64,000 bases of DNA from Bradyrhizobium sp. Its GTDB lineage: Bacteria; Pseudomonadota; Gammaproteobacteria; Burkholderiales; Burkholderiaceae_D. The stretch spans positions 2,322 to 66,321 of the forward strand of contig JBLHMB010000015.1 in NCBI GenBank assembly GCA_047621665.1. The letters are read 5' to 3'. Shown here in pieces: positions 5,631-56,768 of this stretch. The notes under the pieces were generated by a model, which saw nothing but the letters and a program-made list of their open reading frames with translations, was not told the origin of the DNA and ran no database searches. The number at the start of each line of letters is the position of its first letter. The first letter of the stretch is position 1. The position numbers and the translations under genes were made by a program.

Positions 5631-5649
5631 GGTCAGGCTGACTGTCCGG

Positions 5650-5677: not shown

Positions 5678-5785
5678 ACTTCAGGTAGCGAACACTGCAT
5701 TACTGAAAAAATAGTGGTCTGCCTGTTAAAGTTGAGATGCCAGCGTGCCGTTATTGGCTCACTGTAGCAACAACTGGAGAACATC

Positions 5786-8610: not shown

Positions 8611-9839
8611 TGCAGCCATTGCAATGCACCGCGCGCCGCATGGCGTCCGGTGCCGAGGCAGGCGGTGAGCAGGTAGCCGCCGGTCGGCGCTTCCCAGTCA
8701 AGCATTTCGCCGGCACAAAATACGCCCGGCATCGCCTGCGTCATCAAGCCGGCATCCAGCCCTTCAAAGCGCACGCCACCGGCACTACTGATGGCTTCGT
8801 CGATAGGACGCACTGCCGTCAGTGTCAGTGGTAGCGACTTGATCGCGCCAGCCAGTGCGACTGGATTATTGAATGCCGGCTTGTCCAGCAGTTCGCGTAG
8901 CAAACCCATCTTAACCCCCGCCAGTCCGACCCGGCTTTGCAGGTGACTGGCCAGAGAACGTGATCCGCGCGGATGATCAACTTCAGCCAGTACCCGCTCA
9001 GCATCCTTGCCCGGCGTCAGATCGAGCCGGATTGTGACCGCACCGTTGGCGCCGATCTGGTCGCGCAAGGTCGCCGAAATCGCATACACCAGGCTTCCTT
9101 CGATGCCACTGGCGCTAATCATGCATTCGCCGGCGCGGGAGTGGGCAATACCTGCGCCATCGGTCCAGTGGATGACGATGGACTTGAGTGGATAACCGGC
9201 GAATTTATTCGTAAAGTGGGAGGACCAGCCGACGTCAAAGCCACAGTTAGACGCTTGCAGTGGTGCGACAGAGACCCCCCGTGCGCCCAGCCAGGGCACC
9301 CAGGCACCGGTCGAGCCGAGACGCTTCCAGCTGCCGCCACCGAGTGCCAGCACGACCGCATCCGGCTGACACGTCAGCACGCCATCAGGGTGATCAAATA
9401 TCAGTGCGCCATCGGCATCCCAGCCACGCCACGCGTGACGCATATGGAAACGTACGCCGGCGTTGCGCAACCGGTGCAGCCAGGCGCGCAGAAGCGGTGC
9501 GGCTTTCATGTCAACCGGAAAAATGCGTCCCGACGAGCCAACAAAGGTGGCGATGCCCAGTGCGTCGCACCACGCGCGCAAAGCGGTCGCATCGAAGGCG
9601 TCCAGCGCCGGTTGCAGCACAGAGCCGCGCCCGGCATAACGGGACTGGAATGCTGCGGCCGGTTCGGCGTGGGTCAGGTTCAGGCCGCCTTTTCCTGCCA
9701 GCAGGAATTTGCGGCCGACCGATGGCATGGCGTCGTACAGATCGACGTTGACACCGGCTTCGACCAGCGTTTCAGCGGCCATCAGTCCGGCCGGTCCGCC
9801 GCCGATGATCACGGCGTGGCGTGTTTGATAATGCGTCAT
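8598..9839 (-). CDS. HI0933/BaiN-like NAD(P)/FAD-dependent flavoprotein
   Basis: GGGPAGLMAA dinucleotide fold, 'GRKFLLAGKGGLNLTH', C-terminal 'GEMLDWEAPTGGYLLTA'. Confidence 0.9.
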   Translation of the reverse strand: MTHYQTRHAVIIGGGPAGLMAAETLVEAGVNVDLYDAMPSVGRKFLLAGKGGLNLTHAEPAAAFQSRYAGRGSVLQPALDAFDATALRAWCDALGIATFVGSSGRIFPVDMKAAPLLRAWLHRLRNAGVRFHMRHAWRGWDADGALIFDHPDGVLTCQPDAVVLALGGGSWKRLGSTGAWVPWLGARGVSVAPLQASNCGFDVGWSSHFTNKFAGYPLKSIVIHWTDGAGIAHSRAGECMISASGIEGSLVYAISATLRDQIGANGAVTIRLDLTPGKDAERVLAEVDHPRGSRSLASHLQSRVGLAGVKMGLLRELLDKPAFNNPVALAGAIKSLPLTLTAVRPIDEAISSAGGVRFEGLDAGLMTQAMPGVFCAGEMLDWEAPTGGYLLTACLGTGRHAARGALQWLHQKP

Positions 9840-9840
9840 G

Positions 9841-10737
9841 TCAGTTTTCAGTTATTGCAGGGGGCTTGCGCGTGCGCCAGGTGCGCCAGACACTTTCGCC
9901 GGAATACACTACGAGCGCCGACCAGATCGCGGCAAAGCCAATCAGTCGATCGCTGCTAAACGACTCGTTATAGAGCAACACGCCGAGTGCCAGTTGCAGG
10001 CTGGGGCCGATATATTGCAGCAGACCCAGCGTCGCCATCGGAATCCGGCGTGCACCGGCGGCAAACAGCAGCAATGGAATCGCCGTAATCGGCCCTGCCG
10101 CCATCAGTAGCCATTGTGATTGCGTGGGTGCCTCGAAGAACGCATTCTGTTGATTCAGGGTCAGCCACACCAGCGCAGCCAGCGCAAACGGAAACAGTAA
10201 CAAGGTTTCCAGTGACAAGCCTTCAAGCGGCCCGAGCTTTGCCGTTTTGCGCATCAACCCGTAGAAACCGAACGACAATGCCAGTATCAGCCCGATCCAC
10301 GGTGGCTGGCCGGTGATCCACGTCAGCCAGGCGACACCGCAGGCGGCCAACCCGATAGCGAGCCACTGGACTGCGCGCAAGCGTTCGCCCAGCACCACGT
10401 AACCAAGCAGGACGTTGACCAGCGGGTTGATGAAATAGCCCAGACTGGAATCGATGATGCGGCCATTATTGACGGCCCAGATATACGTGAACCAGTTGGT
10501 CGACAGCAGTACTGCGCTGAGCATGAAGGCCGCCAGCACCTTGGGCTGGCGCAGGGCGTCGCCCAGCCATGACCATTGCTTACGCAAGGCCAGCACGCAT
10601 AGCAGGAAAAGCAGCGACCAGACCATCCGGTGCAACATAATTTGTGTCGGGGCGATGCTTTGCAGGGCTTTAAAGTAAAGCGGAAGCAAGCCCCAGATCA
10701 CGTAGGCGGTGGCGGCGAAAAGCATGCCTTTGCGCAT
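9841..10737 (-). CDS. rarD: EamA-family transporter RarD
   Basis: 'YVIWGLLPLYFK', 'SLGYFINPLVNVLLG', 'LGLLQYIGPSLQ'; about 10 TM segments. Start taken at MRKG. Confidence 0.9.
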   Translation of the reverse strand: MRKGMLFAATAYVIWGLLPLYFKALQSIAPTQIMLHRMVWSLLFLLCVLALRKQWSWLGDALRQPKVLAAFMLSAVLLSTNWFTYIWAVNNGRIIDSSLGYFINPLVNVLLGYVVLGERLRAVQWLAIGLAACGVAWLTWITGQPPWIGLILALSFGFYGLMRKTAKLGPLEGLSLETLLLFPFALAALVWLTLNQQNAFFEAPTQSQWLLMAAGPITAIPLLLFAAGARRIPMATLGLLQYIGPSLQLALGVLLYNESFSSDRLIGFAAIWSALVVYSGESVWRTWRTRKPPAITEN

Positions 10738-10890
10738 GGGTGGAAACCTCGGTAGGGGAGCGCGCAGCATTGCGTGCAGGGGCGCAATTATGCCACCGGA
10801 TACACCTTTCCGGTCGCAATACTGGCTTGGGGCGCTCCGGCATACACCGGTACAATGCGGCTTCATTTTTAACGCTGAACCGAGCTTCCC

Positions 10891-11616
10891 ATGACAGACA
10901 CAATCCGCTTGGCCAAACGCGTCGCCGAAGAACTCGGTTGCTCCCGCACCGAAGCCGGGCAATTCATTGAAGGCGGCTGGATTACGGTGGATGGCGTGCT
11001 CACCGAAGAGGCCGGTGCACGGGTCACCGATGAGCAGGCAATCGTGCTCTTGCCCGGTGCAGTGCCGGTACCGCTGGACCCGGTGACGATCTTGCTGCAT
11101 AAGCCGGCCGGTCTGCGCACCGTTGACGCGATTGATCCCGAGCAAGACTGGATCACACCGCAGACGCTAGGCCCGGATGATCGCTCCGGCCTGCGTTTCC
11201 TGCGACGTCACACCAGGGCATTGACGCTGACAAATCCGCTCGAAGACAGTGCCAGCGGTTTGCTGGTGCTGACACAGGACTGGCGTATCGAGCGGGCGCT
11301 GGTGCAGGAAGCTAACCGCATCGAGCAGGAGTTTGTCGTCGAAGTGACCGGTACTCTTGATGACGCCGCAATGGAACTGCTGCAGCACGGTCTGAAATGG
11401 AATGGCAAACCGATGACCTCCATGAATGTGAGTTGGCAAAGCGAACACAAATTGCGTTTTGCGATCAAGGCTGCCGAGCGGGGCCAGATTGCCTACTTGT
11501 GTGAAAAGGTCGGTTTGCAGGTGGTGTCGATCAAGCGACTGCGCATCGGACGGATGTCGATGGCGGCTCTGCCGGTGGGGCAGTGGCGGTATTTGCTGGG
11601 GTATGAACGGTTCTGA
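10891..11616 (+). CDS. S4-domain RsuA/RluF-like pseudouridine synthase homolog with a degenerate catalytic motif
   Basis: S4 domain (IRLAKRVAEELGCSRTEA), 'LLHKPAG' and 'LKRLRIG...LPVGQWRYL'-type C-terminus. RLD motif replaced by PLE. Confidence 0.8.
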   Translation: MTDTIRLAKRVAEELGCSRTEAGQFIEGGWITVDGVLTEEAGARVTDEQAIVLLPGAVPVPLDPVTILLHKPAGLRTVDAIDPEQDWITPQTLGPDDRSGLRFLRRHTRALTLTNPLEDSASGLLVLTQDWRIERALVQEANRIEQEFVVEVTGTLDDAAMELLQHGLKWNGKPMTSMNVSWQSEHKLRFAIKAAERGQIAYLCEKVGLQVVSIKRLRIGRMSMAALPVGQWRYLLGYERF

Positions 11617-11677
11617 GGAGCTTCACGCGGGCACGATTGCTGTCGTGCCCGTGTGAAGATGCGGGATAACCCGGTAA

Positions 11678-13927
11678 TTACTTCCGGCCGGTCCGCGCTA
11701 CCAGTGCCGGACCCTTGCGCACTGGTCTGGCCTGTGCACTCGGGGTGCGTGACACCGCGCCACCTGCACGTGGTTTGTTCTGACCGAACTTTTTCGCCAG
11801 TTTCTCCGGGCTTGGTGTTTCGCGCCGGCGCTCAATGGCCATCAATCCTGCCGTCGGTGCCGAATGACGCGGCACCAGATGTTTCTCGCCGCTGCCGATC
11901 AGCTCCGAGCGTCCCATCCGTTGCAATGCTTCGCGAATGATTTCCCAATTGTCAGGATCGTGATAGCGCAGGAATGCTTTATGCAATTTGCGAATTTTTC
12001 CGGTCCGGACTGTCTCAACTGCTTCCGAGTCAGCCGTGACCTTGCGCAGCGGATTCTTGCGTGTGTGGTACATCGTCGTCGCCAGTGCCATCGGCGTTGG
12101 CATGAAGGTCTGTACCTGATCGAGGCGGAAGTTGTTTTTCTTCAGCCAGAGCGACAGGTTCAGCATGTCTTCATCGGTGGTGCCCGGATGGGCGGCGATG
12201 AAGTACGGGATCAGGTATTGCTCCTTGCCGGCTTCTTTCGAATATTTCTCGAACAATTCCTTGAACTTGTCGTAGGCACCCATGCCCGGCTTCATCATCT
12301 TGGACAACGGGCCTTCTTCGGAATGCTCGGGCGCGATTTTCAGCAAGCCACCGACGTGATGGGTCACCAGTTCCTTGACGTATTCGGGCGAACGCACGGC
12401 GAGGTCATAGCGCACGCCGGAGCTGATCAGGATTTTCTTCACACCGGGAATCGCGCGCGCCTTGCGATACAGCTGGATCAGCTTGCTGTGATCGGTGCCG
12501 AGGTTCGAACAGATGGTCGGGTAGACGCAGGACAAGCGCCGGCACGATTCTTCGATGCTCTTTTCCTTGCAGGCCAGCCGGTACATATTGGCGGTCGGGC
12601 CGCCCATGTCGGAAATGGTACCGGTGAAGCCCTTGGTCTTGTCGCGGATCAGTTCGATTTCACGCAGGATCGATGGCTCGGAACGGCTTTGGATGATGCG
12701 GCCTTCGTGTTCGGTAATCGAGCAGAAGGTGCAGCCGCCGAAGCAGCCGCGCATAATGTTGACCGAAAACCGGATCATGTCCCAGGCCGGGATCTTGGCC
12801 TTGCCGTAGCTCGGGTGTGGTGCCCGGGCATAGTTCATGTCGTAGACACCGTCCATTTCGTCCATTGCTAACGGCAGCGGTGGCGGATTGAGCCAGACAT
12901 CGCGTTCGCCGTGAGCCTGGACCATCGCACGGGCATTGCCGGGATTGGATTCGAGATGAAAGACCCGCGAGGCGTGCGCATACAGCACAGGGTCATCCTT
13001 GATGACGTCGTAGCCGGGCAGACGGATCACGGTCTTGTCACGGATTTCTTTCAGGGCGGCCTTACGTTCTTCGCGGCTCAGAATCAGGATCGGCTTGGCT
13101 ACTACCGTTGGCTCGGCATTGGCGGTGCCACAGCTGGCCGGCTCCTTGGTTTTCATTTCGTACGGGTCCGGATGGGCCTCGATACGACCCGGCGTGTCGA
13201 CCCGGGTCGAGTTGGCTTCGGTCCAGTCATCGGCAGGCAACCAGCCGCGTGACACCATGAAGGCGGTGCCGCGCAGGTTGCGGATTTCCTTGATCGGTTC
13301 GCCTGCGGCGATGCGATGCGTCAGGTCAACCAGTGCGCGCTCGGCATTGCCGAATAGCAGGATGTCGGCTTTCGAATCCGGCAGCACCGAGCGGCGCACC
13401 TTATCCGACCAGTAATCGTAATGGGCGATGCGACGCAGGCTGGCCTCGATGCTGCCGATGACCACGTTGGCATCCGGATAGGCTTCACGGGCGCGCTGCG
13501 CATAGACCACCAGCGCCCGGTCGGGACGCTTGTTGGCTTCGCCATTGGGGGTATAGGCATCATCGGAACGGATCTTGCGGTCGGCCGTATAGCGGTTAAC
13601 CATCGAGTCCATGTTGCCGGCGGTGACGCCGAAATACAGGTTGGGCTTGCCAAGCGAACGGAAGGCATCGACAGATAACCAGTCGGGTTGTGCAATGATG
13701 CCGACGCGAAAGCCCTGCGCTTCCAGCAAACGACCGATCAACGCCATGCCAAAGCTGGGATGATCGATATAGGCATCGCCAGTTACCAGAATCACATCGC
13801 AGGAGTCCCAGCCCAGGACGTCCATTTCTGCGCGCGACATCGGCAGGAAAGGGGCGGGTTTGCCAAGCGCAGGGCGGTTGGCCACACGGTGGGCGGGATA
13901 GGCGAAGAGATTTTTCGGGGATTCCAT
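11678..13927 (-). CDS. YgiQ-family radical SAM protein
   Basis: CxxxCxxC (CFGGCTFC), '[13 protein letters not shown]', '[10 protein letters not shown]'. GAGGA RBS precedes the ATG at 13927. Confidence 0.92.
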
Positions 13928-14167
13928 AAGCGATGCGTCCTCACGTGAGGGTGGCGGTGTCAATGTTGGGAAGCGCGCAGTATGACAGCTTTAGCCGGAC
14001 CCGCGTAGTCGGCAGTTTGCTGACGGGCAGGGTGCCAACTTTGTTGCTTGACGGTTTTGCAATGTTAGGTTCTACTCCTCACTGCGAACAGCGAGCCATG
14101 GCAGGTGTCGTATCGCTCCTCAAGACACTACCAGGTCACAACCACCGTTCGCCTCAGGCACCTTCGT

Positions 14168-15217
14168 ATGACGACGTCATTTTCATTTGCACGATCAGCG
14201 TGCTTAATCCTCATGCTGGCCTGGGGCCAGTTTGTCGGGAGCGCACGCGCCGAATCGGTATTGCGTGTTCTGGCTTGGCCAGGTTATGCCGATGCCGAAG
14301 TGGTCGCGTCGTTCGAAAAAAAAACCGGCGCGCGGGTTGAGGTGTCCTTCGTCAACACTGATGAAGAACTCTGGACCAGATTGTCAGCAAATAATGGCGA
14401 TGACTTCGATGTATTTGCTGTCAATACGGCAGAGCTGCAACGTTACATCGACAACGGTATGAGTGCACCACTGAACCTGGTCGCGATCCCTAATCAGGCG
14501 CGTCAGTTGCCAAGGTTTCGTCAGATATCATCGATTCCCGGCTTGATGCGCGGTCAAAATCTCTATGCAATTCCGTTCACCTATGCCGAGATGGGGTTGA
14601 TCTACAACCGCAAACTGGTGGCGAAGGAGCCGGTATCAATGGAAGCGATGTGGGACCCGCGCTATCACGGTAAGGTTCTGGCTTACGGTGGGAGCGTACA
14701 CAATTTCTCCATGGCTGCGCTGCTTGATGGCAGCAGGAGTCCGTTCCGGTTGACTCCGGATGAGTTGCGCGCTGCCAGTCGACGACTCGTGGGGTTGCGT
14801 CGTAATGTCCTGGCGTTCTATTCGTCGCCGGAAGAGGCTGTCAAGTTATACCTTGAGAATGAGGTGGCGTTAGTGTTCGCTAACTTTGGTACCCAGCAAG
14901 TCCAGGCTTTGCGTGCAGCGGGCGCCGATGTCGGTTATGTGGTGCCGAAGCAGGGCGTCCTGGCATGGCTGGATTGCTGGTCCATCACGGGGCGGGCCCG
15001 GTCACCTCAACTGGCAGCGAAGTGGATCGATGAGACCTTGCAAGCCGATGCCAGTACCCGCTTCAGCGAGCGGCATGGTCTCGCCAACACAGTCACGACG
15101 ACGTCGTTGAGCAGTCCCGGCGACAAACTGTTCTGGTTGCAACCTCCTGAAGATACAGACGAACGGCAAGCTCTCTGGGCCCGCATTCTGTCTGGTGACA
15201 TCTTGCGGAAGTTTTGA
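14168..15217 (+). CDS. Periplasmic solute-binding protein, PotD/PotF (polyamine)-like
   Basis: Signal peptide ending ARA; 'LRVLAWPGYAD', 'YAIPFTYAEMGLIYN' and 'AWLDCWSI' resemble polyamine-binding SBPs. Confidence 0.75.
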   Translation: MTTSFSFARSACLILMLAWGQFVGSARAESVLRVLAWPGYADAEVVASFEKKTGARVEVSFVNTDEELWTRLSANNGDDFDVFAVNTAELQRYIDNGMSAPLNLVAIPNQARQLPRFRQISSIPGLMRGQNLYAIPFTYAEMGLIYNRKLVAKEPVSMEAMWDPRYHGKVLAYGGSVHNFSMAALLDGSRSPFRLTPDELRAASRRLVGLRRNVLAFYSSPEEAVKLYLENEVALVFANFGTQQVQALRAAGADVGYVVPKQGVLAWLDCWSITGRARSPQLAAKWIDETLQADASTRFSERHGLANTVTTTSLSSPGDKLFWLQPPEDTDERQALWARILSGDILRKF

Positions 15218-16962
15218 TCATCATGCGCCCCGGAGTCGGGTTTAAATTGGGGATCTGGTTGGCGCTATTCGGTATCCTGTCGACGGCGCTGACGGGTTAT
15301 TACGCTTATTCAAAAAGTAGAGAATTGCTAATTTCGGCAGCGGAAGACAAGTTGTTGACCGCCACGGACGTCGTGGGACAGCGATTTCTCGACGCGCTGA
15401 TACCGATTACCGAAGACCTCCGCATGATCGTCTCGTTACCTGCAATGACGGCATTAGCTGATGGTGTCGCCGGCGCGGACGGTGCACAACGCAACAAGGC
15501 CAAGTTAGAAGAGGTCTTTGCCAGCATGGTTAAGTCGCGCGTCGATTATGTCCAGCTGCGGGTTATCGGCGTGGCCGGTTTCGGCAGAGAGTTGATCCGG
15601 ACAGACAGGACTAGCAGCGGGATCGAGGCGGTCAATAACGACGACCTGCAGGAGAAAGCACACTTTCCTTATATGTTTGAGGCAGTCAAGATGCCTGCGG
15701 GAGAGTTTTATTTTTCGAAGATTAATCTTAATCGCGAGCGGCATTGGCAAGACGGATTCGATACGCCGACCTTGCGGATTGCCACGCCGGTGCGCGGCCT
15801 CGATGGCAGGGTGTTTGGTATCGTGATTGTCAATGTCGATCTCAATCGTCTTTTCAACCGGTTGCGCAGCAACCTGCCGGGCAATATTGCCCTTGTCCTG
15901 ACCAACGACGAGGGCGACTATTTGATTCACCCTGATCAGCGCAAGACCTTTGGTTTTGACCATGGACGGCGCGTTCTCATTCAGGAAGATATCGGGGAGA
16001 TCAAGACCTTGCTTAAGCCAGGTCCGGTCAGGCACTTGTTGACACGTACAAGCGTGGGTTCGCACGATGTTGCCAATGCAGGTGCCTTCGTCAGGATACC
16101 GTTCGGGAGCACGAGCCAACCTTATTTCGTCCTGCTGGGACTGCAAACACCACTCAGTATCGTGCTGCGCGATAGCAAATTTCTGGGAGTGACCATCATC
16201 CAGATTACGGTGCTATGCAGTCTGGCTGCTGCGTGCCTGTCTTTCTTGCTGTCATTCGTGCTGGCCAAACCCTTAAATGCGATGGCAACAGCAGTCAAGC
16301 AATTCGAGGCTGGTAAAGTCATCACCAGTTTGCCGACCGAACGGGACGATGAAATTGGCTATCTGGCACGCAGTTTTCAGCACATGAGTAAGCGGCTCAG
16401 TAGCCAGGTAAGTGATCTGCAGGCACGCGAACAAAGTTTACAGTATCTGGCCCATCACGATCAATTGACCGGGTTGCCGAACCGGACGATGTTTCAGCAA
16501 GCGCTGGCCGCAAAGATTGACCAGGCCAATGTTGATGAGAGCCGTTTTTGCCTGATGTTCATCGATCTTGACAAGTTCAAGCAGGTGAACGACCAGTTGG
16601 GTCATGTGGTCGGTGATCAGGCCTTGCAACTGGCCGCGTTGCGGATGCGGGCATCGGTGCGCAATGAAGATGTTGTTGCACGGCTGGGTGGCGATGAATT
16701 TACTATTCTGGTGAGCGATTTCCAGCACGAGTCCGATGTCACTGTCATTGCACAAAAACTGATTCATGTATTTGATCAGTCGTTCATTGTCGATGGCCAT
16801 GAGTTTGAGATGACCTGCAGCATTGGTATCAGCATGTTCCCGCAGGATGGCAAGGATGCCGATCAGTTGCTCATTGCTGCGGACGCGGCAATGTACCGCG
16901 CCAAACTGGGTCAGCGCAGCATGCTGGAGTGGTTTAGCGATCTGCCGGATGGTGCTGCTTAA
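15214..16962 (+). CDS. Membrane diguanylate cyclase (TM - Cache-like periplasmic - TM - HAMP - GGDEF)
   Basis: Two TM helices, HAMP (DEIGYLARSF), intact RLGGDEF, RxxD I-site (RNED). Start overlaps the SBP stop (TTGA). Confidence 0.9.
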   Translation: MIIMRPGVGFKLGIWLALFGILSTALTGYYAYSKSRELLISAAEDKLLTATDVVGQRFLDALIPITEDLRMIVSLPAMTALADGVAGADGAQRNKAKLEEVFASMVKSRVDYVQLRVIGVAGFGRELIRTDRTSSGIEAVNNDDLQEKAHFPYMFEAVKMPAGEFYFSKINLNRERHWQDGFDTPTLRIATPVRGLDGRVFGIVIVNVDLNRLFNRLRSNLPGNIALVLTNDEGDYLIHPDQRKTFGFDHGRRVLIQEDIGEIKTLLKPGPVRHLLTRTSVGSHDVANAGAFVRIPFGSTSQPYFVLLGLQTPLSIVLRDSKFLGVTIIQITVLCSLAAACLSFLLSFVLAKPLNAMATAVKQFEAGKVITSLPTERDDEIGYLARSFQHMSKRLSSQVSDLQAREQSLQYLAHHDQLTGLPNRTMFQQALAAKIDQANVDESRFCLMFIDLDKFKQVNDQLGHVVGDQALQLAALRMRASVRNEDVVARLGGDEFTILVSDFQHESDVTVIAQKLIHVFDQSFIVDGHEFEMTCSIGISMFPQDGKDADQLLIAADAAMYRAKLGQRSMLEWFSDLPDGAA

Positions 16963-49124: not shown

Positions 49125-49508
49125 TCAGGCTGACTTGCGGCGATGTGCGGCGAAGCCTAGCAAGCCCAGGCCGGCGAGCATCATTGCGTAGTTCTCTGGC
49201 TCGGGAACGGACGACAGTACTTGAGTTGGTTTGGGGAGGAATTCAATGGGGAGTGGGAATGTGATCGGTTTCGGTACATTAAACGAGGGAGGTGGAGTGA
49301 ATAAAATCCCAGGATTGTTAGGGCCGATCACTGGAGGTTGTGCTGTGTTGTTGACATAGCCAAAAAGGCCGTTGGGATTGGTTGGGTCAACAGGGCCTAG
49401 TGTAATGATGACTCCATTAATATCGGTGAGTTGAAGACCAGAGATAATGGTGACTTGAGGACCAGGGACGACGTTGCCGGGCGCCGCATGTGCTGTCGAT
49501 AGCACCAT
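49125..49508 (-). CDS. PEP-CTERM sorting-domain protein, Pro/Asn-rich passenger; true start uncertain
   Basis: C-terminal VPEPENYAMMLAGLGLLGFAAHRRKSA. The frame stays open upstream, but no ATG/GTG/TTG precedes the signal-like segment. Confidence 0.85.
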   Translation of the reverse strand: MVLSTAHAAPGNVVPGPQVTIISGLQLTDINGVIITLGPVDPTNPNGLFGYVNNTAQPPVIGPNNPGILFTPPPSFNVPKPITFPLPIEFLPKPTQVLSSVPEPENYAMMLAGLGLLGFAAHRRKSA

Positions 49509-49724
49509 GAATGAAGCTATTGCAAAAGAAAAGGCCGAAGCGTAAGCGAGTGCAAATTGAGATATTTTTGTCCTGATTGTTGTTGGTGGATGATTCTTTT
49601 TATGGTCCGGTTGGTAAATTATTTTTAGTGGCCGACCATTAATTAAAAGTCTTGTTAAGGAAACTTTTTTTTTAATAAGGCAATTTTTTTAATGGGTCTC
49701 GTTGACTGTGCTATGACTTCCAAC

Positions 49725-49830
49725 TGTGCTCACTGAATGGCGCGTCGGGCTATGACCAGCACTTCTATCTGAACGATTTTCGCCGCGCTACCAAGGTCAT
49801 TTCGCGGACGCTGGCCGAGTCGACGGCTGA
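49725..49830 (+). pseudogene. Diverged duplicate of the 3' end of the M20 hydrolase gene
   Basis: Translates to DQHFYLNDFRRATKVISRTLAE versus DEHLDLNDLRRATKVIARTLAE at 48950-49015. Confidence 0.85.
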
Positions 49831-49852
49831 GCATTTGCCGCGTAACGCAAAT

Positions 49853-49885
49853 AAAAAAGCCGCGCAAGACCGTGTCGAGCGGCTT
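49853..49885 (-). terminator. Diverged copy of the 49056 terminator
   Basis: AAAAAAGCCGC...GTGTCGAGCGGCTT shares its arm with the first copy. Confidence 0.7.
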
Positions 49886-49910
49886 CGCGACTACAGCTTG
49901 TAGCCAGTTT

Positions 49911-50579
49911 TTAGACTGACTTGCGACGACGTGCCATGAAACCCAGCAGGCCCAGACCGGCGATCATCATGCCGTAGGTTTCCGGCTCGGGAACGGGCGA
50001 AACAGGAGGGGTTTCCTGACCCAAGGAAAGATAGGCACGGTAGTTGCTGATGCCGTGTGGCAGATTACTAAATGAAAATGCGGTCGTTGTGGTGAAAGGA
50101 GAATCCCAATGGAACAGCAGTTCGCCCTGGCCGTAGTGAATGGCTAGGTAGTCAAAGCTAGGTGAAATGTTGAACGATCCTGACTTGTCCTCGTTCTTAG
50201 AATTCTGCTCCTCAAAATCCCCTTCGCTCGTCAGTGAAATGGCATTCGTCAATTCAAACTTTGTCTCAATCAATGTCTTGATTGTGGCAGGGCTTTGTGA
50301 GTTGCCCGGACCCGCAGTGTTAGGCGGATTGTCACCGTCGTACACCCACACCGTTTGTGCCGCCACCGGGCCGTATTGAACGCTGTTTGTGCCAACGTCG
50401 AATCCCGCCATGGACGGATTTGCTGTTTTTATCCACATTGGTGATGTTGTTGTTGGTGGTAGTGGTGGTGGTGGTGCTGGCTTTTTATCCTCAACAAACT
50501 TCGCCTGCGCTGTCGACATCAGCATTGACGAAGTCACCATGATGGAAAAAATAAGCGTAATTTTTTTAAATTTGGTCAT
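49911..50579 (-). CDS. PEP-CTERM sorting-domain protein
   Basis: AAGGA RBS, signal peptide ending STAQA, Pro-rich linker, C-terminal VPEPETYGMMIAGLGLLGFMARRRKSV. Confidence 0.92.
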   Translation of the reverse strand: MTKFKKITLIFSIMVTSSMLMSTAQAKFVEDKKPAPPPPLPPTTTSPMWIKTANPSMAGFDVGTNSVQYGPVAAQTVWVYDGDNPPNTAGPGNSQSPATIKTLIETKFELTNAISLTSEGDFEEQNSKNEDKSGSFNISPSFDYLAIHYGQGELLFHWDSPFTTTTAFSFSNLPHGISNYRAYLSLGQETPPVSPVPEPETYGMMIAGLGLLGFMARRRKSV

Positions 50580-50849
50580 GACGTTTTCCTTGATGACGAC
50601 ATCGCAGTCGGGTGGTGTAGTTGTTTTCAAGTTAATATCTTTAAGCGACGAACTATCTCCTATAGATGTCTTTTTGTAAATACATTATTTAAAATATGAC
50701 ATTTTTTTCATTTAATTGAATATTGGTGAGTATTTGCTCTGTCTGTTATTCGGGGGCGACACCAATGCGCCGCATCGTCGCCTTGCATTGTCTGCGCTAC
50801 CCTCCGTCCGTTATAGTGCGGCCTCACTCTTTTCCCTCGTTCAACGCTG

Positions 50850-52274
50850 ATGTTCTTCCAACCCGACCGCCTGCATTTTTTTCGTCCGCTGGCCAGCAAG
50901 CATCGCGGCATTCTGGTCGATTGCGTGCATGCGCTGTACGAACGGCTGCATGGTCCCAGCGCCGACTACGCCCAGAATCTGACGCGCGAATCGCTGAGAG
51001 ACCTGTTGTTGCCAGTCGTGCAGCAAGCCCGGCTGGCGCTGGTGCCCGATGACGACGCGCCGCCCGACCTCGACTTCAGTCAGAGCACCGACAGCGATGA
51101 CGCACAAAGTACCGCCGCCGTCATTCGTGCGCTGGAGCGCGACGGCTGGCTGGAAAAATTTGGCGACCGGGCCGGTCTGGTGTCGGCCTATCGCTTCACC
51201 CGCGCCGGCAAACTGTTCGCCGAGGCATTCTGGACGCTGGACAGGCGCAGCGCCCGCACGCGTCAGCGCAATGTGCGCAGTTGCCGTAATGCGCTCGATG
51301 CCACGCTGCGTAACCTGGATGCGTATGATCTGGTTGATGCGTATGACTATGCCGAAAAAGTCATCAGCGACCTGTCCGAGAATGTCGATTATTTTCAGGA
51401 ACTGGTGCGCCGGCTGATGCAGGAAGCGGCCGAGACACCGTGGGATGGCTTCATGGAATTCCTGCAGCGCTTCGAGACCGAATTCAAGAAACAGCTCACC
51501 GCCGACAGCGTCGAACGCCATCGGCAAGTGATCCGCGACCAGCTCCAGCGCTTGCAGCAACTGCCGCCCGAACAGCATCGCAAGCTCGAAGCGCAATTGA
51601 ATGACATCGCACGCTGGGCCAGTCAGGAACGGGTCGGTACCTCGACGCTGGACTGGCTGCTCGAACGCATCGAAGAGATCGTCGAAGCGGCCTGCACCAC
51701 TAAACATCCCGAACTGATCAAGGCGATGAGCATCTACATGCAGCGTGCCGCCGCCATCGTGCAGCAGGCCGTGATGCTGCGTGGCGGTCAGCGCAAGCAG
51801 GCCTACAGCATCGCCATCACCCGGACTGCAGCGCTGGCACCGGCGGCGCAGCAGGCCTTTCTCGAACAGCTCGGACTGGTGATCGCGCCGGCTGCGCTGC
51901 GCCTGCTCGATCCGGCTGCGTTCAAGTTGCGCAGTGCCTCGCAGCGCCGGCGTGCGTTGACCGTGACTGCGCAACCGCGCATCAGTCACGCAGCGCGAAT
52001 CGAGGCGGCGATGATCCGTGCCGAAGCCGATGCGTTTGCCTTGTCGAACGAAGACGTGGTCAGTCGCATCCGTGCCGAACTGCAATTGCGCGACCGGCCG
52101 ATCCGGCTCTCGACGCTGCCGGCCGGCACGGCCATCGAGATTCTCAACAACATGCAACTGGTCGAGGCGGTGCGCGCTGCGCGCGACCCGGCTCTGCGCG
52201 TGACTAAATTGCCGGCCAAATTATTGAACGCCTTTTATGCCGGCGATGACTACCAGATCGAGATCACCCAATGA
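50850..52274 (+). CDS. JetA/MksF-like kleisin subunit (inferred)
   Basis: 474-aa helical protein, first of three ATGA-coupled genes ending in an SMC ATPase. Assignment rests mainly on size and position. Confidence 0.65.
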   Translation: MFFQPDRLHFFRPLASKHRGILVDCVHALYERLHGPSADYAQNLTRESLRDLLLPVVQQARLALVPDDDAPPDLDFSQSTDSDDAQSTAAVIRALERDGWLEKFGDRAGLVSAYRFTRAGKLFAEAFWTLDRRSARTRQRNVRSCRNALDATLRNLDAYDLVDAYDYAEKVISDLSENVDYFQELVRRLMQEAAETPWDGFMEFLQRFETEFKKQLTADSVERHRQVIRDQLQRLQQLPPEQHRKLEAQLNDIARWASQERVGTSTLDWLLERIEEIVEAACTTKHPELIKAMSIYMQRAAAIVQQAVMLRGGQRKQAYSIAITRTAALAPAAQQAFLEQLGLVIAPAALRLLDPAAFKLRSASQRRRALTVTAQPRISHAARIEAAMIRAEADAFALSNEDVVSRIRAELQLRDRPIRLSTLPAGTAIEILNNMQLVEAVRAARDPALRVTKLPAKLLNAFYAGDDYQIEITQ

Positions 52275-52966
52275 CGCAGACCGTCACCCTGAACACCACC
52301 CTCAACAACACCCTTGCGCTGCATAACCTCGACGCCGAACGCTTCCGCGATATCGTCGGCCGGCTCTATGCCGCCGGCATTATCGTGCGCGATGAAGACG
52401 GCGTCGAGCAACGCTTGTACGACGACATGCGGCGCATCGAAGCATTGCTGCACGATTATTTCGGACTGGCCGGATTCCGGCTGGTGCATGACATCAAGGG
52501 CGAATTTTTCCGGTTGTACGCGCCGGGTGCCGACGTGCCGGGCCTGCCTGCCGACGACCTCGAACCGGTGCTTGGCCTGCGCGCCCGGCTCGGTGCCGAC
52601 TTTGTCGCGGCGGCGCTGGCACTGCGATTCCAGTATCAGCAAGGATTGGCCGAAGCCGGCCGCCGGCTCACCGATGACGGCGAAGTACTGGTCACGTTTG
52701 AGGAAGTCTCGGCCACGCTGCAGACCCAGTTGAAGCGCACGTTGCCGGGCAATACGGTTGAGCGCCTGCGCTTGCTGGCAGACTTGCGGCGGCACCGGTT
52801 GATCCGCATGGCACCGAGTTTTTCGATGGATGATGAAGACGCTTTGCTGGCGATCCGCCCGACCATTCTCGGCATCATCAGCGATGACATGCTGGCGGCA
52901 GCGCTGGAAGCCGACGGTGTCGATGACGCCGCAGCATCGACCGACTCACAACAGGACGCACCATGA
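52271..52966 (+). CDS. JetB/MksE-like KITE subunit (DUF4194-like)
   Basis: 231 aa with 'ALALRFQYQQGL', 'LLADLRRHRLI' and 'LLAIRPTI', consistent with tandem winged helices. Lies directly before the SMC gene. Confidence 0.72.
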   Translation: MTQTVTLNTTLNNTLALHNLDAERFRDIVGRLYAAGIIVRDEDGVEQRLYDDMRRIEALLHDYFGLAGFRLVHDIKGEFFRLYAPGADVPGLPADDLEPVLGLRARLGADFVAAALALRFQYQQGLAEAGRRLTDDGEVLVTFEEVSATLQTQLKRTLPGNTVERLRLLADLRRHRLIRMAPSFSMDDEDALLAIRPTILGIISDDMLAAALEADGVDDAAASTDSQQDAP

Positions 52967-55900
52967 AGCTCGACAAATTGATCCTCGTGAACTGGGGCGC
53001 ACTGCGCACGCAGGAATACCCGATGGGCAACATGACCTTGCTGACCGGTCCGACCGGTTCCGGCAAATCGACCATGCTCGATGCGCTGCAAACCGTGATG
53101 ACGGCGGTCTACACCAACATCTTCAATTACAACCCCGGTCAGGACGAAACCACGCAGGGCGCGCGCAATGGCAAGACCAAACGCACGCTGTGGTCCTACA
53201 TTGTCGGTGCCGAGGACAACCTGTTCGCGCGACCGAACGGCGCGCATGGCTACATTGCGGCGGTATTCAAACCCAGCGAAGGCGAGGACGGCCGCGAGTT
53301 CACGGCGCTGATCGCGGCATCGGCCCGGCTCGATGGTGCCGGCGAGCGGCGGCAGGCCGTGGCCGAACGGCTGGTGCTGCTGATCATCGACGAGGCCGCC
53401 TTGCAACTGGGTGACCTGACCACGCTGGCTGCCGATGGCGCGATGAGCGTGATCGCGGTCGAGAAAATTGAACAGCACCTTGCCACCCGCTATCGCAATG
53501 TAATGAATTTTCGCGATAGCAAACGGGAATATCTGTGCCAGTTGTACGGCCGCTTTCGCGGCCAGAAAACCGTTCCGTTTGCCGAAGCCGAAAGCGCCGC
53601 CAAGGCCTGGAGCCAATCGATTGCGCATAAGCCGATTGGCAGCGTTGACGAACTGGTGCGGCATCAGATTCTCGAACTCGACGCGACCCAGTTGTCGCAG
53701 CGGATCGGCCAGATCAGCAAGCTGATGCGCCAGGTCAGCGAACTGCGTCACGAAGGCGAACGCCTGGCCGGCAACGTGCAGCGATTGGCCTTGCTGGGCA
53801 AGACTGCCAGCGCGACCAGTGCGGCGCATGAAGCGGCGGTGCAAGGACAATTGCTGGTCTCGACACTGGCCTTGCGCGATGACCGGCAACAGATGACCAG
53901 CGCTGATCTGGCCGTGCAAGCGACGCTGGGTGCGATCGATATCGAGAACGCCAGCATCGACCAGCTCGAACAGGACCGGCTTGGCAAGCAGCGCAGTCTG
54001 ACCCAATTGCAGGCGCAAATGATGGGCATCCCGGCCGCCGAACAGAAGCGCCGGTTGCAGCAGGATGTGCAGGCCAATGGCGCGCGCATCCACACCGCGC
54101 TGGGCGCATTGAAGCAGAACCTGCTGGCCGCGCAGCAGCTCGAACGCACCGCGCTGCTGGTCGCTGGCATGCAGATTCCACTTGGTTATTTTGAACTGGT
54201 GAAGGCGGCGCGCCAGGTTGCCGTCGCGCTGTCGGTGGCCACTGGTCCGGACTGGACGCTGCAGCTACAGGCCATTGCCCAGCTGTCGGCCAGTGCTGAG
54301 ATCGATGTCCTCAAGGCGCTGCTGCTGATGCAGGAACTGGCCGGCAGCGCGTTGCCGCTGCTCGGATTGCATACTGCGCTGGCCGGCACCGGCCAGAGCT
54401 TTGCGGCCGCGCTGCATGCGCAGATCGCGCAGTTGCGCGCCATCGAAACCGATGCGCTCAGGCGCGAAAAAGAATCGGCCTCGCGCAAGGCCAATCTGGC
54501 CGAAGGCGGTGCCGATTATCCGGCCGCGACGCGTCATGCGCTGAAAACCTTCCGTGAAGAACTCGGTGCAGCCCGAGCGCAAGTGCTGTGCGATCTGATC
54601 GAACCGCTGTCGCTGCAATGGCAACCGGCCATCGAAGGCTATCTGGGCGGTGCGCGATTTAATCTGGTGGTCGATCAGGAATGGGAAGCGCGCGCGATTG
54701 AATTCGTGCGTCACCGCAAGCTGCGCGCCAGCGTGATCCAGGGCAGCCTGTGCCTCAAACACATGCGACCGGATCGCACGCCAGCCGATTCGATCATCCA
54801 TGAATTGCGCGCCGGGCATCCGATTGCCGACGCCTATCTGCATGAGCAGTTCGGCCAAGTCGTCAAGGTCGCTGATGCGCAGGCCTTGCGTCAGGTGGCG
54901 CGCGGCCTGACGCAGGACGGCAAGGGCAGTGGCGGGCGCACGATGTTTGCCGCCGATGCCGAACAGCTGGTGTTCGGTCAGGAAGCCAAACGGCTGGCGC
55001 GCGAACGGGCGGGACAGGACCATGCCGAGGCCGAAGCCGCGCTCGATCAGGTGCGCGCCGAGCTGCGCGATTTTCAGGGCGCGCTGGCATTGATGGTGCC
55101 GCTGCAGCCGGTTTCGCTGGCGGCGCTGGCCGGGCTAGACAGCGCGGTGCGCAGCACCGATGCGTTACGTCAGGATCTGGCGCGCATCGACCTGAGCGAA
55201 GTGAGCAAACTGGAAGACGAGGTCGAGGTCCTGCAACAGGAATTGCGCCGTCTTGATGAGCGCAAGAGCCGTTGCGACAAACAGATCGGTGGTCTCGAGC
55301 GTACGTTGCAGGTACATCAGCTGACCATCAACAAGCTCGCGCTCGGCATGGAGCCCAAGCAGGAACGGGCCGATCAGGATCGCGCTGCGCTGCGTGACTT
55401 GTGTGTCGCCAATGAGCGCCTGTCGCTGACAGCGCTGGCCGATGCGGTCGCGCTGGAAGCCGGGTCCGGAACGCTCATACCAAACGAGGCGGCGGCGCGC
55501 GTGAAGCAACACGAGCTGCGGACCTGGCGCTTGCATGCCGACATGCGCGATGCGCTGGGTGACTACCATGCCCATGCGCGACCGGATGAACGCTTCGATG
55601 TGAGTGAACAGCCCGAGGAGCGCGAAGGTGATTTCGGCCGGCTGTACGCCCGCATCGTCGCGCTGTCAGCGCAGGTGCGCGACCAGCTGTTGCGCCAGCA
55701 GGAGATCGGATTGGTCCGTAATCTCGATCAGTTGCGTACCGCCGAGGCATCGTTCAACGATGTCTTCACCAAGCAGTTCTGCTACGAAATCCGCAATGCT
55801 GTCGATACCGGCGTGCGCACCCTCAAGACCCTCAACACCGAGCTCGACAAACTCAAGTTCGGCACCGACACATTTCGCATCGACTGGTCGGAATGGGTGC

Positions 55901-56571
55901 CGGAATTCAAGGAGTACTACGATTTTTTCAGTGCCACCGCCGAGCTGTCCGAGCTGCAGGAGTCGCTCGGCCTGTTCGATGAGACGCCACTCAGTGCTGC
56001 CAATTGCGCGGTACGTGACCGCTTGCTGGCCTTGTTGTTGTCGGATGAAGGCGAACGCGCGCTGAAAGAATTGCAACGCGTAGCCGACTACCGCAATTAC
56101 CGTCGCTATGAAATTTTCAAGGAGTCCGGGTCCGGCTCGCAGGTCCGCTTGTCCGAATGGGGCACCGGTTCCGGTGGCCAGCTTGAAACGCCGGCCTACA
56201 TCATTCACGCGGCGGTGGTGACCAACCGGCTGCGGCATTTCGACAAGGGCAGCAATTTGAAATTGCTGGTCAATGACGAATCGTTCTCGAAAATGGACGA
56301 GGGCAGGGCGCGCGATGTCCTGAAATTCTTGCGCGACAATCTCGGCATGCAATTGATTTGCGCGCTGCCGACCAAGCATGCCGGCGCGATCAAGCCGGAG
56401 TTTTCACGCGAGTGGAGTTTTAGCCGTACCGAAGCCGAGGATAACGGCGAGGTGGGATTTGTCTCCGAAGCGGATGAGCGCGAATTGCGCGCTGATGCGT
56501 TGCGCGGCTTGTGGGAGGAGCGCCGGGCGCAGGTGCGGGAGCAGGCGATGCTGGTGTTCGGACAAGGGTGA
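52963..56571 (+). CDS. JetC/MksB-like SMC ATPase
   Basis: N-terminal 'LILVNWG...TGPTGSGKST' Walker A, long coiled coils around a central hinge, signature 'GSGGQ', Walker B 'LLVNDESFSKMDE'. Confidence 0.9.
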   Translation: MKLDKLILVNWGALRTQEYPMGNMTLLTGPTGSGKSTMLDALQTVMTAVYTNIFNYNPGQDETTQGARNGKTKRTLWSYIVGAEDNLFARPNGAHGYIAAVFKPSEGEDGREFTALIAASARLDGAGERRQAVAERLVLLIIDEAALQLGDLTTLAADGAMSVIAVEKIEQHLATRYRNVMNFRDSKREYLCQLYGRFRGQKTVPFAEAESAAKAWSQSIAHKPIGSVDELVRHQILELDATQLSQRIGQISKLMRQVSELRHEGERLAGNVQRLALLGKTASATSAAHEAAVQGQLLVSTLALRDDRQQMTSADLAVQATLGAIDIENASIDQLEQDRLGKQRSLTQLQAQMMGIPAAEQKRRLQQDVQANGARIHTALGALKQNLLAAQQLERTALLVAGMQIPLGYFELVKAARQVAVALSVATGPDWTLQLQAIAQLSASAEIDVLKALLLMQELAGSALPLLGLHTALAGTGQSFAAALHAQIAQLRAIETDALRREKESASRKANLAEGGADYPAATRHALKTFREELGAARAQVLCDLIEPLSLQWQPAIEGYLGGARFNLVVDQEWEARAIEFVRHRKLRASVIQGSLCLKHMRPDRTPADSIIHELRAGHPIADAYLHEQFGQVVKVADAQALRQVARGLTQDGKGSGGRTMFAADAEQLVFGQEAKRLARERAGQDHAEAEAALDQVRAELRDFQGALALMVPLQPVSLAALAGLDSAVRSTDALRQDLARIDLSEVSKLEDEVEVLQQELRRLDERKSRCDKQIGGLERTLQVHQLTINKLALGMEPKQERADQDRAALRDLCVANERLSLTALADAVALEAGSGTLIPNEAAARVKQHELRTWRLHADMRDALGDYHAHARPDERFDVSEQPEEREGDFGRLYARIVALSAQVRDQLLRQQEIGLVRNLDQLRTAEASFNDVFTKQFCYEIRNAVDTGVRTLKTLNTELDKLKFGTDTFRIDWSEWVPEFKEYYDFFSATAELSELQESLGLFDETPLSAANCAVRDRLLALLLSDEGERALKELQRVADYRNYRRYEIFKESGSGSQVRLSEWGTGSGGQLETPAYIIHAAVVTNRLRHFDKGSNLKLLVNDESFSKMDEGRARDVLKFLRDNLGMQLICALPTKHAGAIKPEFSREWSFSRTEAEDNGEVGFVSEADERELRADALRGLWEERRAQVREQAMLVFGQG

Positions 56572-56768
56572 GCGGTCGTGCGGGTGGGTTTCGGTGATTG
56601 CCCGCTGCGCATTTGAGGCCGGTGGGCGGGCAAGAGGGTTTGTGTGTCCGCGCAAATGCCCCATTCAACGCGACAACAAATCCCGGCCCGCTGAGCGCAA
56701 TTAAAAGAACCCCCGTAGAATCCGGAAATTATCCAAGTTGCCATGATCACCCGAGGCCGCCTTCGCCC

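What the first reader, a model, noticed from the sequence alone, without database searches (positions are those of the whole stretch)
50850..56571. Wadjet/MksBEF-type SMC operon with no nuclease subunit
Seen: three genes of 474, 231 and 1202 aa are joined by ATGA overlaps, and the third has intact Walker A, signature and Walker B motifs. The flanks are about 270 bp to a divergent PEP-CTERM gene and about 200 bp to cytochrome b561, leaving no room for a jetD/mksG TOPRIM nuclease, and I saw no remnant of one. There are no mobility or other defence genes nearby, and composition resembles the host. Established: Wadjet restricts plasmids through JetABC loop extrusion plus JetD cleavage, and nuclease-free MksBEF acts as an accessory condensin in Pseudomonas aeruginosa. 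The SMC N-terminus here looks JetC-like. Inference: a domesticated nuclease-free Wadjet serving chromosome organisation or non-cleaving plasmid restriction, or one that uses an effector encoded in trans.
Basis: partly seen in the sequence, partly recalled or inferred. Interest (0 to 1): 0.72.

Follow-up and report, generated by a model that had tools for sequence, protein, structure and literature searches.

The report
Wadjet SMC operon that lost its nuclease
This Actimicrobium operon is the intact DNA-looping motor (JetA, JetB, JetC) of a plasmid-cutting Wadjet system whose nuclease gene jetD was deleted, as happened repeatedly in related bacteria, and the motor genes are still kept by selection, so the finding is a fresh example of an already proposed route from defence system to nuclease-free MksBEF-like complex.

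Summary
Window 50850-56571 holds jetA (474 aa), jetB (231 aa) and jetC (1202 aa), joined by ATGA overlaps, with intact ATPase motifs and no jetD.

- **Not a partner:** the only JetD-like sequence in the genome, on another contig, is the wreck of a second, classical type I jetABCD operon that four congeners still carry intact.
- **Ancestral state:** the window's lineage (PF18982/DUF5716-type JetA) is normally a four-gene operon. A divergent jetD follows jetC in Glaciimonas, Herminiimonas, methanotrophs, Rhodocyclales and on Variovorax and Cupriavidus megaplasmids.
- **Repeated loss:** jetD was lost about nine times on the JetC tree, at least four of them within Oxalobacteraceae. Three loci keep truncated jetD stubs.
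- **Motor kept:** jetABC stays intact with dN/dS of 0.04-0.12, the same as in JetD-containing relatives. It is present in 20 of 20 Collimonas species, 16 of which have no JetD-like gene at all.
- **Not a replacement:** the host also has Smc and ScpA.

Best reading: a nuclease-free, Wadjet-derived SMC complex with a selected JetD-independent role, most likely as an MksBEF-like accessory condensin. That role is untested. It is a new member of a known kind and of moderate interest.

The parts
50788..50817 (+). Candidate sigma-70-like promoter (TTGTCT-18 nt-TATAGT), 33 bp upstream of the jetA start
   Evidence: Consensus scan only. This is weak evidence.
50850..52274 (+). jetA: kleisin subunit, 474 aa, PF18982 (DUF5716)-type JetA
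   Evidence: PADLOC PDLC00462 at E=4.5e-205 over the full length. Pfam PF18982 at E=8.9e-9. Identity to the Actimicrobium sp. CCI2.3 orthologue is 96%. dN/dS is 0.04-0.11.
52271..52966 (+). jetB: KITE subunit (MukE/MksE-like), 231 aa, DUF4194
   Evidence: PADLOC PDLC00470 at E=7e-87. Pfam DUF4194 at E=2.4e-17. ATGA overlap with jetA. The protein is conserved across JetD+ and JetD- loci.
52963..56571 (+). jetC: SMC-like ABC ATPase, 1202 aa, with coiled coil and hinge
   Evidence: PADLOC PDLC00507 at E=0 over 1-1200. Pfam AAA_29 and SbcC_Walker_B. Walker A, signature, Walker B and H-loop are intact. A subfamily profile hits the hinge region of JetC structures 8as8 and 8dk2 at E about 1e-8.
56572..56743 (.). 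Spacer between the jetC stop and the likely cytochrome b561 start. This is where jetD sits in JetD-containing relatives; no remnant is left.
   Evidence: Sequence read directly. tblastn with 16 cognate JetD proteins gives no hit in the window at E<=1e-3. In JetD+ loci jetD starts about 20-50 bp after jetC.

Best explanation
**Shown**
- The locus is a jetD-deleted derivative of a four-gene type I Wadjet lineage whose JetA is of the PF18982/DUF5716 type and whose JetD is divergent (PADLOC PDLC00527).
- JetA (kleisin), JetB (KITE dimer) and JetC (SMC-like ATPase) are complete and carry all ATPase motifs.
- The nuclease gene that follows jetC in sister lineages is absent here and in all congeners. 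No cognate JetD exists elsewhere in the genome.
- All three genes are kept under purifying selection as strong as in JetD-containing relatives.

**Inferred**
- The three proteins should still assemble into the ATP-driven, DNA loop-extruding dimer-of-dimers known for Wadjet.
- The complex still loads on DNA and extrudes loops but cannot cleave. It is retained for a JetD-independent role.
- That role is most likely an accessory, non-essential condensin acting beside Smc-ScpAB, as MksBEF does in Pseudomonas aeruginosa.
- The recurrent loss of jetD suggests that JetABC of this lineage already had such a role, and that shedding the nuclease is tolerated or favoured, for example by removing a barrier to plasmids.
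For: 1. **Identity and integrity:**
2. **Four-gene ancestry:** an unbiased clustering of flanking genes in 53 loci found a roughly 378-aa gene directly after jetC in 17 loci. It is JetD by PADLOC PDLC00527 at E about 1e-127. Variovorax and Cupriavidus megaplasmid relatives are annotated jetABCD.
3. **Loss by deletion:** jetD stubs of 45-62 codons follow jetC in two loci. A third relative has a 140-codon fragment with a stop codon.
4. **Recurrent loss:**
   - On the JetC tree, JetD+ Glaciimonas nests among JetD- Oxalobacteraceae (100/100 for the clade, 97/85 and 99/97 within it).
   - An AU test rejects a single JetD- clade at p=0.0076.
   - The JetD tree is congruent with the JetC tree.
5. **No JetD of any kind available:**
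   - tblastn and a max-sensitivity HMM search of the own genome give a best E of 2.8.
   - 16 of 21 JetA-positive Oxalobacteraceae genomes have no cognate JetD.
   - 16 of 20 Collimonas have no JetD_C match at all.
6. **Selection:**
   - dN/dS is 0.04-0.12 for jetA, jetB and jetC in most JetD- pairs, up to dS about 0.8 (the Noviherbaspirillum pair is higher, 0.25-0.31). JetD+ pairs give mostly 0.04-0.11 (one value 0.21).
   - JetD- branches are no longer than the Glaciimonas JetD+ branch.
7. **Internal control:** the classical jetABCD at another locus is intact in four congeners. It is shredded in this genome and in three others, while the JetD-less trio is intact wherever it is assembled.
8. 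**Core-like status:** the trio is in 20 of 20 Collimonas species, intact in 18. Neighbourhoods are housekeeping and differ between genera.
9. **Not a replacement for Smc:** Smc (1087 bits) and ScpA are present.
Against: - No functional data exist for this lineage, with or without JetD.
- Only 6 of 11 Actimicrobium species carry the trio. It is absent at the same site in two high-quality genomes, so it is dispensable and behaves partly like an accessory gene set.
- No JetD-minus-specific substitutions or relaxed surface were found. The 16 apparent fixed differences are phylogenetic. There is therefore no sequence sign of re-specialisation.
- Low dN/dS also fits a retained non-cleaving defence role.
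- The own assembly is a 93%-complete draft.
Confidence: 0.6

Rival explanations
1. This is a non-cleaving defence system. JetABC without JetD still recognises small circular DNA by total extrusion. It then interferes with plasmids through compaction, silencing or mis-segregation rather than cutting.
For: - The proteins are nearly indistinguishable from those of JetD+ sisters, with no re-specialisation.
- The patchy presence in Actimicrobium (6 of 11) is typical of defence genes.
- Purifying selection fits this reading equally well.
- The review notes that Smc5/6 restricts episomes by compaction.
Against: [quoted passage not shown]
- The loci are not in defence islands.
- The trio is fixed in all 20 Collimonas species, which is unusual for a defence system.
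Confidence: 0.2
2. This is a disabled defence system on its way to decay. jetD loss inactivated it, and jetABC is intact only because too little time has passed.
For: - jetD stubs in three relatives show ongoing erosion.
- The operon has decayed in one reduced Collimonas genome, G196/L086.
- It is absent from some congeners.
Against: - dN/dS is about 0.1 across dS of about 0.75 between Actimicrobium species.
- All scorable JetD- loci in four genera keep full-length genes.
- In the same genomes a truly unneeded Wadjet was shredded within a much shorter divergence, dS about 0.3.
Confidence: 0.08
3. This is a split system. JetABC works with a nuclease encoded elsewhere, either the JetD of the second Wadjet or an unrelated effector.
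For: - Four congeners carry a complete second jetABCD about 1 Mb away.
- Another window in this scan was read as a split Wadjet (an unchecked note).
Against: - The second system's JetD is broken in this genome and in A. antarcticum, yet the trio stays constrained there.
- 16 of 20 Collimonas and the Noviherbaspirillum-type genome G031 have no JetD-like gene.
- The second system is only remotely related. Its JetC hits PDB JetC at 1e-62, against 1e-8 for a profile of the window's lineage.
- No neighbour is conserved across genera.
Confidence: 0.07

Closest known systems
Four-gene Wadjet of the same lineage (e.g. Glaciimonas sp. PCH181; Herminiimonas fonticola S-94; Variovorax sp. SRS16 plasmid 2, NZ_LR594667.1; Cupriavidus taiwanensis plasmid NZ_CP016951.1)
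   Same: - Same gene order and sizes, and the same PADLOC sub-models for JetA, JetB and JetC.
- For Glaciimonas, 72% JetA, 72% JetB and 68% JetC identity.
- The megaplasmid copies share 40-52% JetA identity.
   Different: Those operons carry a 375-396-aa JetD (PDLC00527) directly after jetC. The window's operon ends at jetC. None of these relatives has been studied experimentally, as far as I could find.
Characterised type I Wadjet / JetABCD (E. coli GF4-3, PDB 8as8/8bfn; P. aeruginosa PA14, PDB 8dk2; C. glutamicum MksBEFG)
   Same: Same architecture of kleisin, KITE and SMC-like ATPase, and the same family-level models. A loop-extruding motor is presumed.
   Different: - There is no JetD.
- Sequence similarity is very remote. 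phmmer of JetC or JetA against PDB finds nothing. A subfamily profile reaches only E about 1e-8, over the hinge.
- JetA is PF18982-type, not DUF3375-type.
- The decayed second system in this genus is the classical kind.
Pseudomonas aeruginosa MksBEF (nuclease-free Muk-like condensin)
   Same: - A three-gene kleisin-KITE-SMC operon without a nuclease.
- It coexists with Smc-ScpAB.
- It is fixed across a genus: all Pseudomonas, compared with 20 of 20 Collimonas here.
[quoted passage not shown]
   Different: - It is not the same clade. Lioy et al. report no sequence similarity between PA MksBEF and MksBEFG, whereas this trio scores E=0 on Wadjet models and has JetD+ sisters at about 70% identity.
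- No Pseudomonas locus was among the 53 loci found with lineage-specific motifs.
- A direct comparison could not be run, because the PA sequences were not retrievable with these tools.
- A chromosomal role is shown for PA MksBEF and only inferred here.
MukBEF (Enterobacterales)
   Same: An SMC-kleisin-KITE complex of the same broad superfamily that forms a dimer of dimers.
   Different: - The MukB N-terminal Pfam hit is below cut-off (E=0.009, 16 bits against a cut-off of 23).
- There are no MukE or MukF hits.
- MukBEF replaces Smc-ScpAB, whereas this host keeps Smc and ScpA.

Membership tests
Type I Wadjet (JetABCD) | JetA kleisin subunit | tested here: met
   PADLOC JetA1 PDLC00462 at E=4.5e-205. 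Pfam PF18982 at 34.8 bits, above the cut-off of 26.2.
Type I Wadjet (JetABCD) | JetB KITE subunit (DUF4194) | tested here: met
   PF13835 at E=2.4e-17. PADLOC JetB1 at E=7e-87.
Type I Wadjet (JetABCD) | JetC SMC-like ABC ATPase with intact nucleotide-binding motifs | tested here: met
   PADLOC JetC1 at E=0. Walker A, signature, Walker B and H-loop are intact.
Type I Wadjet (JetABCD) | JetD Toprim/CAP nuclease encoded with the operon | tested here: not met
   No gene or scar follows jetC. No cognate JetD exists in the genome. The only JetD-like sequence is a frameshifted remnant of another system.
Type I Wadjet (JetABCD) | ATP-dependent cleavage or restriction of small circular DNA | not testable with these tools
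   This needs plasmid transformation and stability assays or in vitro reconstitution.
MksBEF-type nuclease-free condensin | Three-gene kleisin-KITE-SMC operon lacking MksG/JetD | tested here: met
   The same state holds in five congeners.
MksBEF-type nuclease-free condensin | Sequence membership in the characterised P. aeruginosa MksBEF clade | tested here: inconclusive
   The PA sequences could not be fetched. Indirect evidence is negative: there is no Pseudomonas among the 53 lineage loci, and the literature reports no similarity between PA MksBEF and MksBEFG.
MksBEF-type nuclease-free condensin | Contribution to chromosome organisation or segregation | not testable with these tools
   This needs a knockout, Hi-C and anucleate-cell counts.
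Smc-ScpAB | Match to the bacterial SMC equivalog model above its cut-off | tested here: not met
   JetC scores 33 bits on TIGR02168 against a cut-off of 567. The true smc is at G000:C10:3017-6502 with 1087 bits, and scpA is at C2.
MukBEF | MukB, MukE and MukF family matches | tested here: not met
   The MukB N-terminal hit is 16.1 bits, below the cut-off of 23. There are no MukE or MukF hits.

The most novel reading that the evidence does not exclude
JetABC of this Wadjet lineage has a selected function that does not need the nuclease. jetD is therefore shed again and again: about nine times on the tree, and at least four times within one bacterial family.

The Oxalobacteraceae would then be a set of parallel, young 'domestications' of a plasmid-defence motor into a chromosomal SMC complex. 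JetD+ and JetD- sisters still share about 70-80% identity and occur in culturable soil bacteria. That would make the proposed Wadjet-to-MksBEF/MukBEF transition directly testable.
Probability: 0.35. Interest if true: 0.7.

Novelty: new member of a known kind. Interest (0 to 1): 0.5.

Why it matters
Reviews propose that MksBEF, and perhaps MukBEF, arose when a Wadjet plasmid-defence complex lost its nuclease. The known nuclease-free complexes are too diverged from Wadjet to show this.

Here the transition is visible at short range, and three features make it a usable system:
- **Natural comparison set:** intact four-gene operons, operons with jetD stubs, and clean three-gene operons under equal constraint sit side by side in one protein lineage and one bacterial family.
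- **Internal control:** in the same genomes, an unneeded classical Wadjet decays quickly.
- **Tractable hosts:** Collimonas, Glaciimonas and Actimicrobium isolates are non-pathogenic and culturable. They could be used to ask whether a Wadjet motor already works on the chromosome, and what, if anything, must change once the nuclease is gone.

The finding also warns annotators that calling 'Wadjet' from JetA, JetB and JetC alone will mislabel such loci as active anti-plasmid systems.

Tried and rejected
- **jetD in trans.** A JetD_C/DUF3322 hit on contig C1 looked like the missing partner. It is a composite remnant of a different, classical jetABCD: JetA2 1-162, JetB2 119-208, JetC2 1-56 and 924-990, and JetD2 48-387 with a frameshift after GDIDTHG and an in-frame TGA. 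Rejected.
- **One ancient loss in Oxalobacteraceae.** The first tree suggested this. Adding Glaciimonas (JetD+) and the G186 stub overturned it.
- **Replacement effector in cis.** Neighbours differ between genera and are housekeeping genes: cytochrome b561 and YceI, transglutaminase-like, phosphorylase, DUF2804, holB-tatD, cysS, POT transporter. None is conserved.
- **JetD-minus-specific substitutions in JetC.** Sixteen candidate positions turned out to be phylogenetic, because Glaciimonas JetD+ shares them.
- **Relaxed JetD-docking surface.** The best 25-aa window, JetC 989-1013, is a generally variable acidic loop and is not convincing.
- **JetB N-terminal 'IFDR' JetD-contact motif.** The review mentions it, but it is not recognisable in either state of this lineage.
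- **Database lookups with nothing useful.**
  - NCBIfam has no model for these proteins.
  - phmmer against PDB finds nothing for JetC or JetA.
  - The Cupriavidus necator H16 Wadjet knockout paper concerns a type III system and is not relevant.
- **Domain type of P. aeruginosa MksF.** A literature search found nothing.
Full report
**1.
- The window has three + strand ORFs: 50850-52274 (474 aa), 52271-52966 (231 aa) and 52963-56571 (1202 aa). Both junctions are ATGA stop/start overlaps.
- They match PADLOC type I JetA (E=4.5e-205), JetB (7e-87) and JetC (E=0) over their full lengths.
- They also match Pfam JetA (PF18982, formerly DUF5716), DUF4194, and AAA_29 plus SbcC_Walker_B.
- JetC has Walker A GPTGSGKST, signature GSGGQ, Walker B LLVNDE and an H-loop, all invariant across the family.
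- Upstream lies a divergent PEP-CTERM gene. Downstream lie cytochrome b561 and two YceI genes.
- The roughly 170-bp spacer after jetC has no room for, and no trace of, jetD.
- Genes within about 5 kb are a GST-like protein, an M20 peptidase, PEP-CTERM proteins, a YgjP-like protein and DUF6671. None is a mobility or defence gene.
- Operon GC is 62.3% against 57.7% for the genome. GC3 matches the neighbouring gene.

**2. The jetD elsewhere in the genome is a red herring.**
- The window is G000:C15:2322-66321 of a 4.0-Mb, 126-contig, 93%-complete assembly. By its nearest named relatives it is an Actimicrobium (Oxalobacteraceae): A. antarcticum JCM 16673 and Actimicrobium sp. CCI2.3.
- Pfam JetD_C and DUF3322 hit one place, on contig C1. 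The reading frame breaks right after the Toprim motif GDIDTHG, and an in-frame TGA follows.
- In four congeners (G005, G008, G009, G010) the syntenic site beside a GGDEF-EAL gene holds a complete, classical type I jetABCD. It has a DUF3375-type JetA of 487 aa, JetB of 208 aa, JetC of 1127 aa and JetD of 387 aa.
- That JetC matches the solved P. aeruginosa PA14 and E. coli JetC structures at E=1e-62 and 1e-58.
- In the window's genome only about 1.9 kb of fragments remain: JetA2 1-162, JetB2 119-208, JetC2 1-56 and 924-990, and JetD2 48-387. G002, G007 and G003 show independent wrecks.
- So this jetD belonged to another system and is dead.

**3. The window's lineage normally has its own jetD.**
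- A search of one genome per species with an alignment of JetA relatives gave 53 loci.
- Clustering every flanking ORF, without prior assumptions, revealed a roughly 378-aa gene immediately after jetC in 17 loci.
- It is a divergent JetD: PADLOC PDLC00527 at E about 1e-127, but only 25-30 bits on Pfam JetD_C.
- Relatives at 40-52% JetA identity on Variovorax, Cupriavidus and Ralstonia megaplasmids include annotated jetABCD operons.
- No such JetD exists in the window's genome. tblastn gives a best E of 0.1, and a filter-free HMM search of all six-frame ORFs gives a best E of 2.8. Its congeners also lack one.

**4. jetD was lost repeatedly, by deletion.**
- Two JetD-less loci keep only the first 45-62 codons of jetD after jetC. 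A third (G186) keeps codons 10-146 with a stop.
- On a careful JetC tree of 46 rows, the Oxalobacteraceae form one clade (100/100).
- Within it, JetD+ Glaciimonas nests between JetD- Paraherbaspirillum and the G186 stub plus JetD- Collimonas. JetD- Actimicrobium and Noviherbaspirillum branch further out.
- Forcing all JetD- Oxalobacteraceae into one clade costs 44 log-likelihood units (p-AU 0.0076). The group was named after seeing the tree.
- The JetD tree is congruent with the JetC tree. Glaciimonas JetD pairs with the JetD of a syntenic Collimonas-genus MAG (support 99), and that MAG groups with Collimonas by JetA. Re-acquisition of jetD is therefore unlikely.
- Counting losses only gives about nine:
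  - Noviherbaspirillum
  - Actimicrobium
  - Paraherbaspirillum
  - the Collimonas branch
  - a Gallionellales clade
  - two Methylobacter
  - two stub-bearing MAGs

**5. The nuclease-free trio is maintained.**
- Pairwise dN/dS (NG86) for jetA, jetB and jetC is 0.04-0.12 in most JetD- pairs; the Noviherbaspirillum pair is higher (0.25-0.31). Window against A. antarcticum at dS of 0.7-0.8 falls in the lower range. JetD+ pairs give mostly 0.04-0.11, with one value of 0.21.
- JetD- branches are not longer than the JetD+ Glaciimonas branch.
- In Actimicrobium the trio occupies the same site in six species and is intact wherever it is assembled.
- In a 201-genome sample of the family, 21 genomes carry this JetA:
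  - 4 have an adjacent cognate jetD
  - 1 has a jetD fragment
  - 16 have none, closed genomes included
- All 20 Collimonas species carry it, and 18 copies are intact.
- Sixteen of those 20 have no JetD-like gene of any type.
- The contrast with the shredded classical Wadjet in the same genomes argues that the trio is kept for something that does not need JetD.

**6. What it probably does.**
- The host has canonical Smc (1087 bits on TIGR02168) and ScpA, so the trio is a supernumerary SMC complex.
- Established knowledge, taken from the reviews read:
  - JetABC is a loop-extruding dimer of dimers that hands fully extruded small circles to JetD for cleavage.
  - P. aeruginosa MksBEF lacks the nuclease, promotes long-range chromosomal contacts and backs up segregation.
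  - Loss of the nuclease has been proposed to 'lock' a former Wadjet into a chromosomal role.
- By inference, this complex extrudes DNA without cutting and serves as an accessory condensin (about 0.6).
- A non-cleaving anti-plasmid role (about 0.2) cannot be excluded. The proteins show no re-specialisation, and the trio is dispensable in some Actimicrobium species.
- Decay in progress (about 0.08) and a trans-encoded effector (about 0.07) are disfavoured by sections 2 and 5.

**7. Relation to known systems and novelty.**
- The trio fails the Wadjet membership test on the one defining feature tested and not met, JetD. It meets the architectural definition of MksBEF.
- It is not close to any solved Wadjet.
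- By indirect evidence it is not in the P. aeruginosa MksBEF clade.
- Nuclease-free Mks/Wadjet-type operons are already known, and several other windows of this scan were read the same way (unchecked AI notes, not used as evidence). The kind is therefore known.
- New here:
  - the lineage itself
  - the density of independent losses
  - the coexistence of JetD+, stub and JetD- states at about 70-80% identity in culturable soil bacteria
- Interest is moderate, at 0.5.

**Limits.**
- The assembly is a draft.
- The P. aeruginosa sequences were not retrievable.
- The AU test was post hoc.
- The JetA tree is weakly resolved.
- Some loci come from MAGs whose frameshifts may be assembly errors.

Noticed in passing
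G000:C1:43957-45824 (L004 9957-11824, - strand): This is the wreck of a second, classical type I jetABCD (DUF3375-type JetA) beside a GGDEF-EAL gene. The operon is intact in congeners G005, G008, G009 and G010. It is independently degraded in this genome, G002, G007 and G003, so turnover of a canonical Wadjet is fast within one genus.
   Followed up: yes
L038 (JBLHLW010000092.1 = G008:C92): This contig is titled 'Candidatus Paceibacteria bacterium', yet it carries jetABC and flanks 92-97% identical to Actimicrobium. The likely cause is a mislabelled or contaminated MAG record.
   Followed up: no
P0002, P0019, P0020; CP063168.1 (H4): JetA proteins of this lineage are named 'ferrochelatase' in some UniRef and NCBI records. 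This looks like a propagated misannotation.
   Followed up: no
L077 10001-21414 (Deefgea chitinilytica); L067 154-8732: In Deefgea, jetA is separated from jetB-jetC by about 8.6 kb of inserted genes. In a Burkholderiales MAG the gap is about 2.6 kb. These are insertions inside the operon, of unknown content.
   Followed up: no
L071, L073, L074 about 4500-15800 (Gallionellales): The JetD-less jetABC lies directly downstream of the housekeeping holB (DNA pol III delta') and tatD-like DNase cluster, on the same strand. It is probably coincidental, but it places a DNase gene next to a nuclease-less Wadjet.
   Followed up: partly
L053 1734-8568 (Collimonas-genus MAG, = G239): This syntenic Collimonas-type locus keeps an intact jetD (380 aa), but its jetC is split into two or three ORFs and its jetA is split in two. 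It is either an alternative way of inactivating the system or MAG assembly errors.
   Followed up: partly
window 49125-50630 (- strand): Two PEP-CTERM proteins (127 and 239 aa) lie in a low-GC stretch (48-51%) just upstream of jetA. They are absent in Actimicrobium sp. CCI2.3, where jetA follows the M20 peptidase gene directly. This is a small variable insert.
   Followed up: partly
L086 (Collimonas sp. UBA1456 = G196, 1.7-Mb genome): This is the only Collimonas in which the JetD-less operon has collapsed to short JetA, JetB and JetC fragments. The genome itself is strongly reduced.
   Followed up: no
L057 (MAG titled Rhizobium sp. B91_maxbin.006): A complete jetABCD of this otherwise beta/gammaproteobacterial lineage sits in a bin labelled Rhizobium. 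The cause is either horizontal transfer or a binning error.
   Followed up: no
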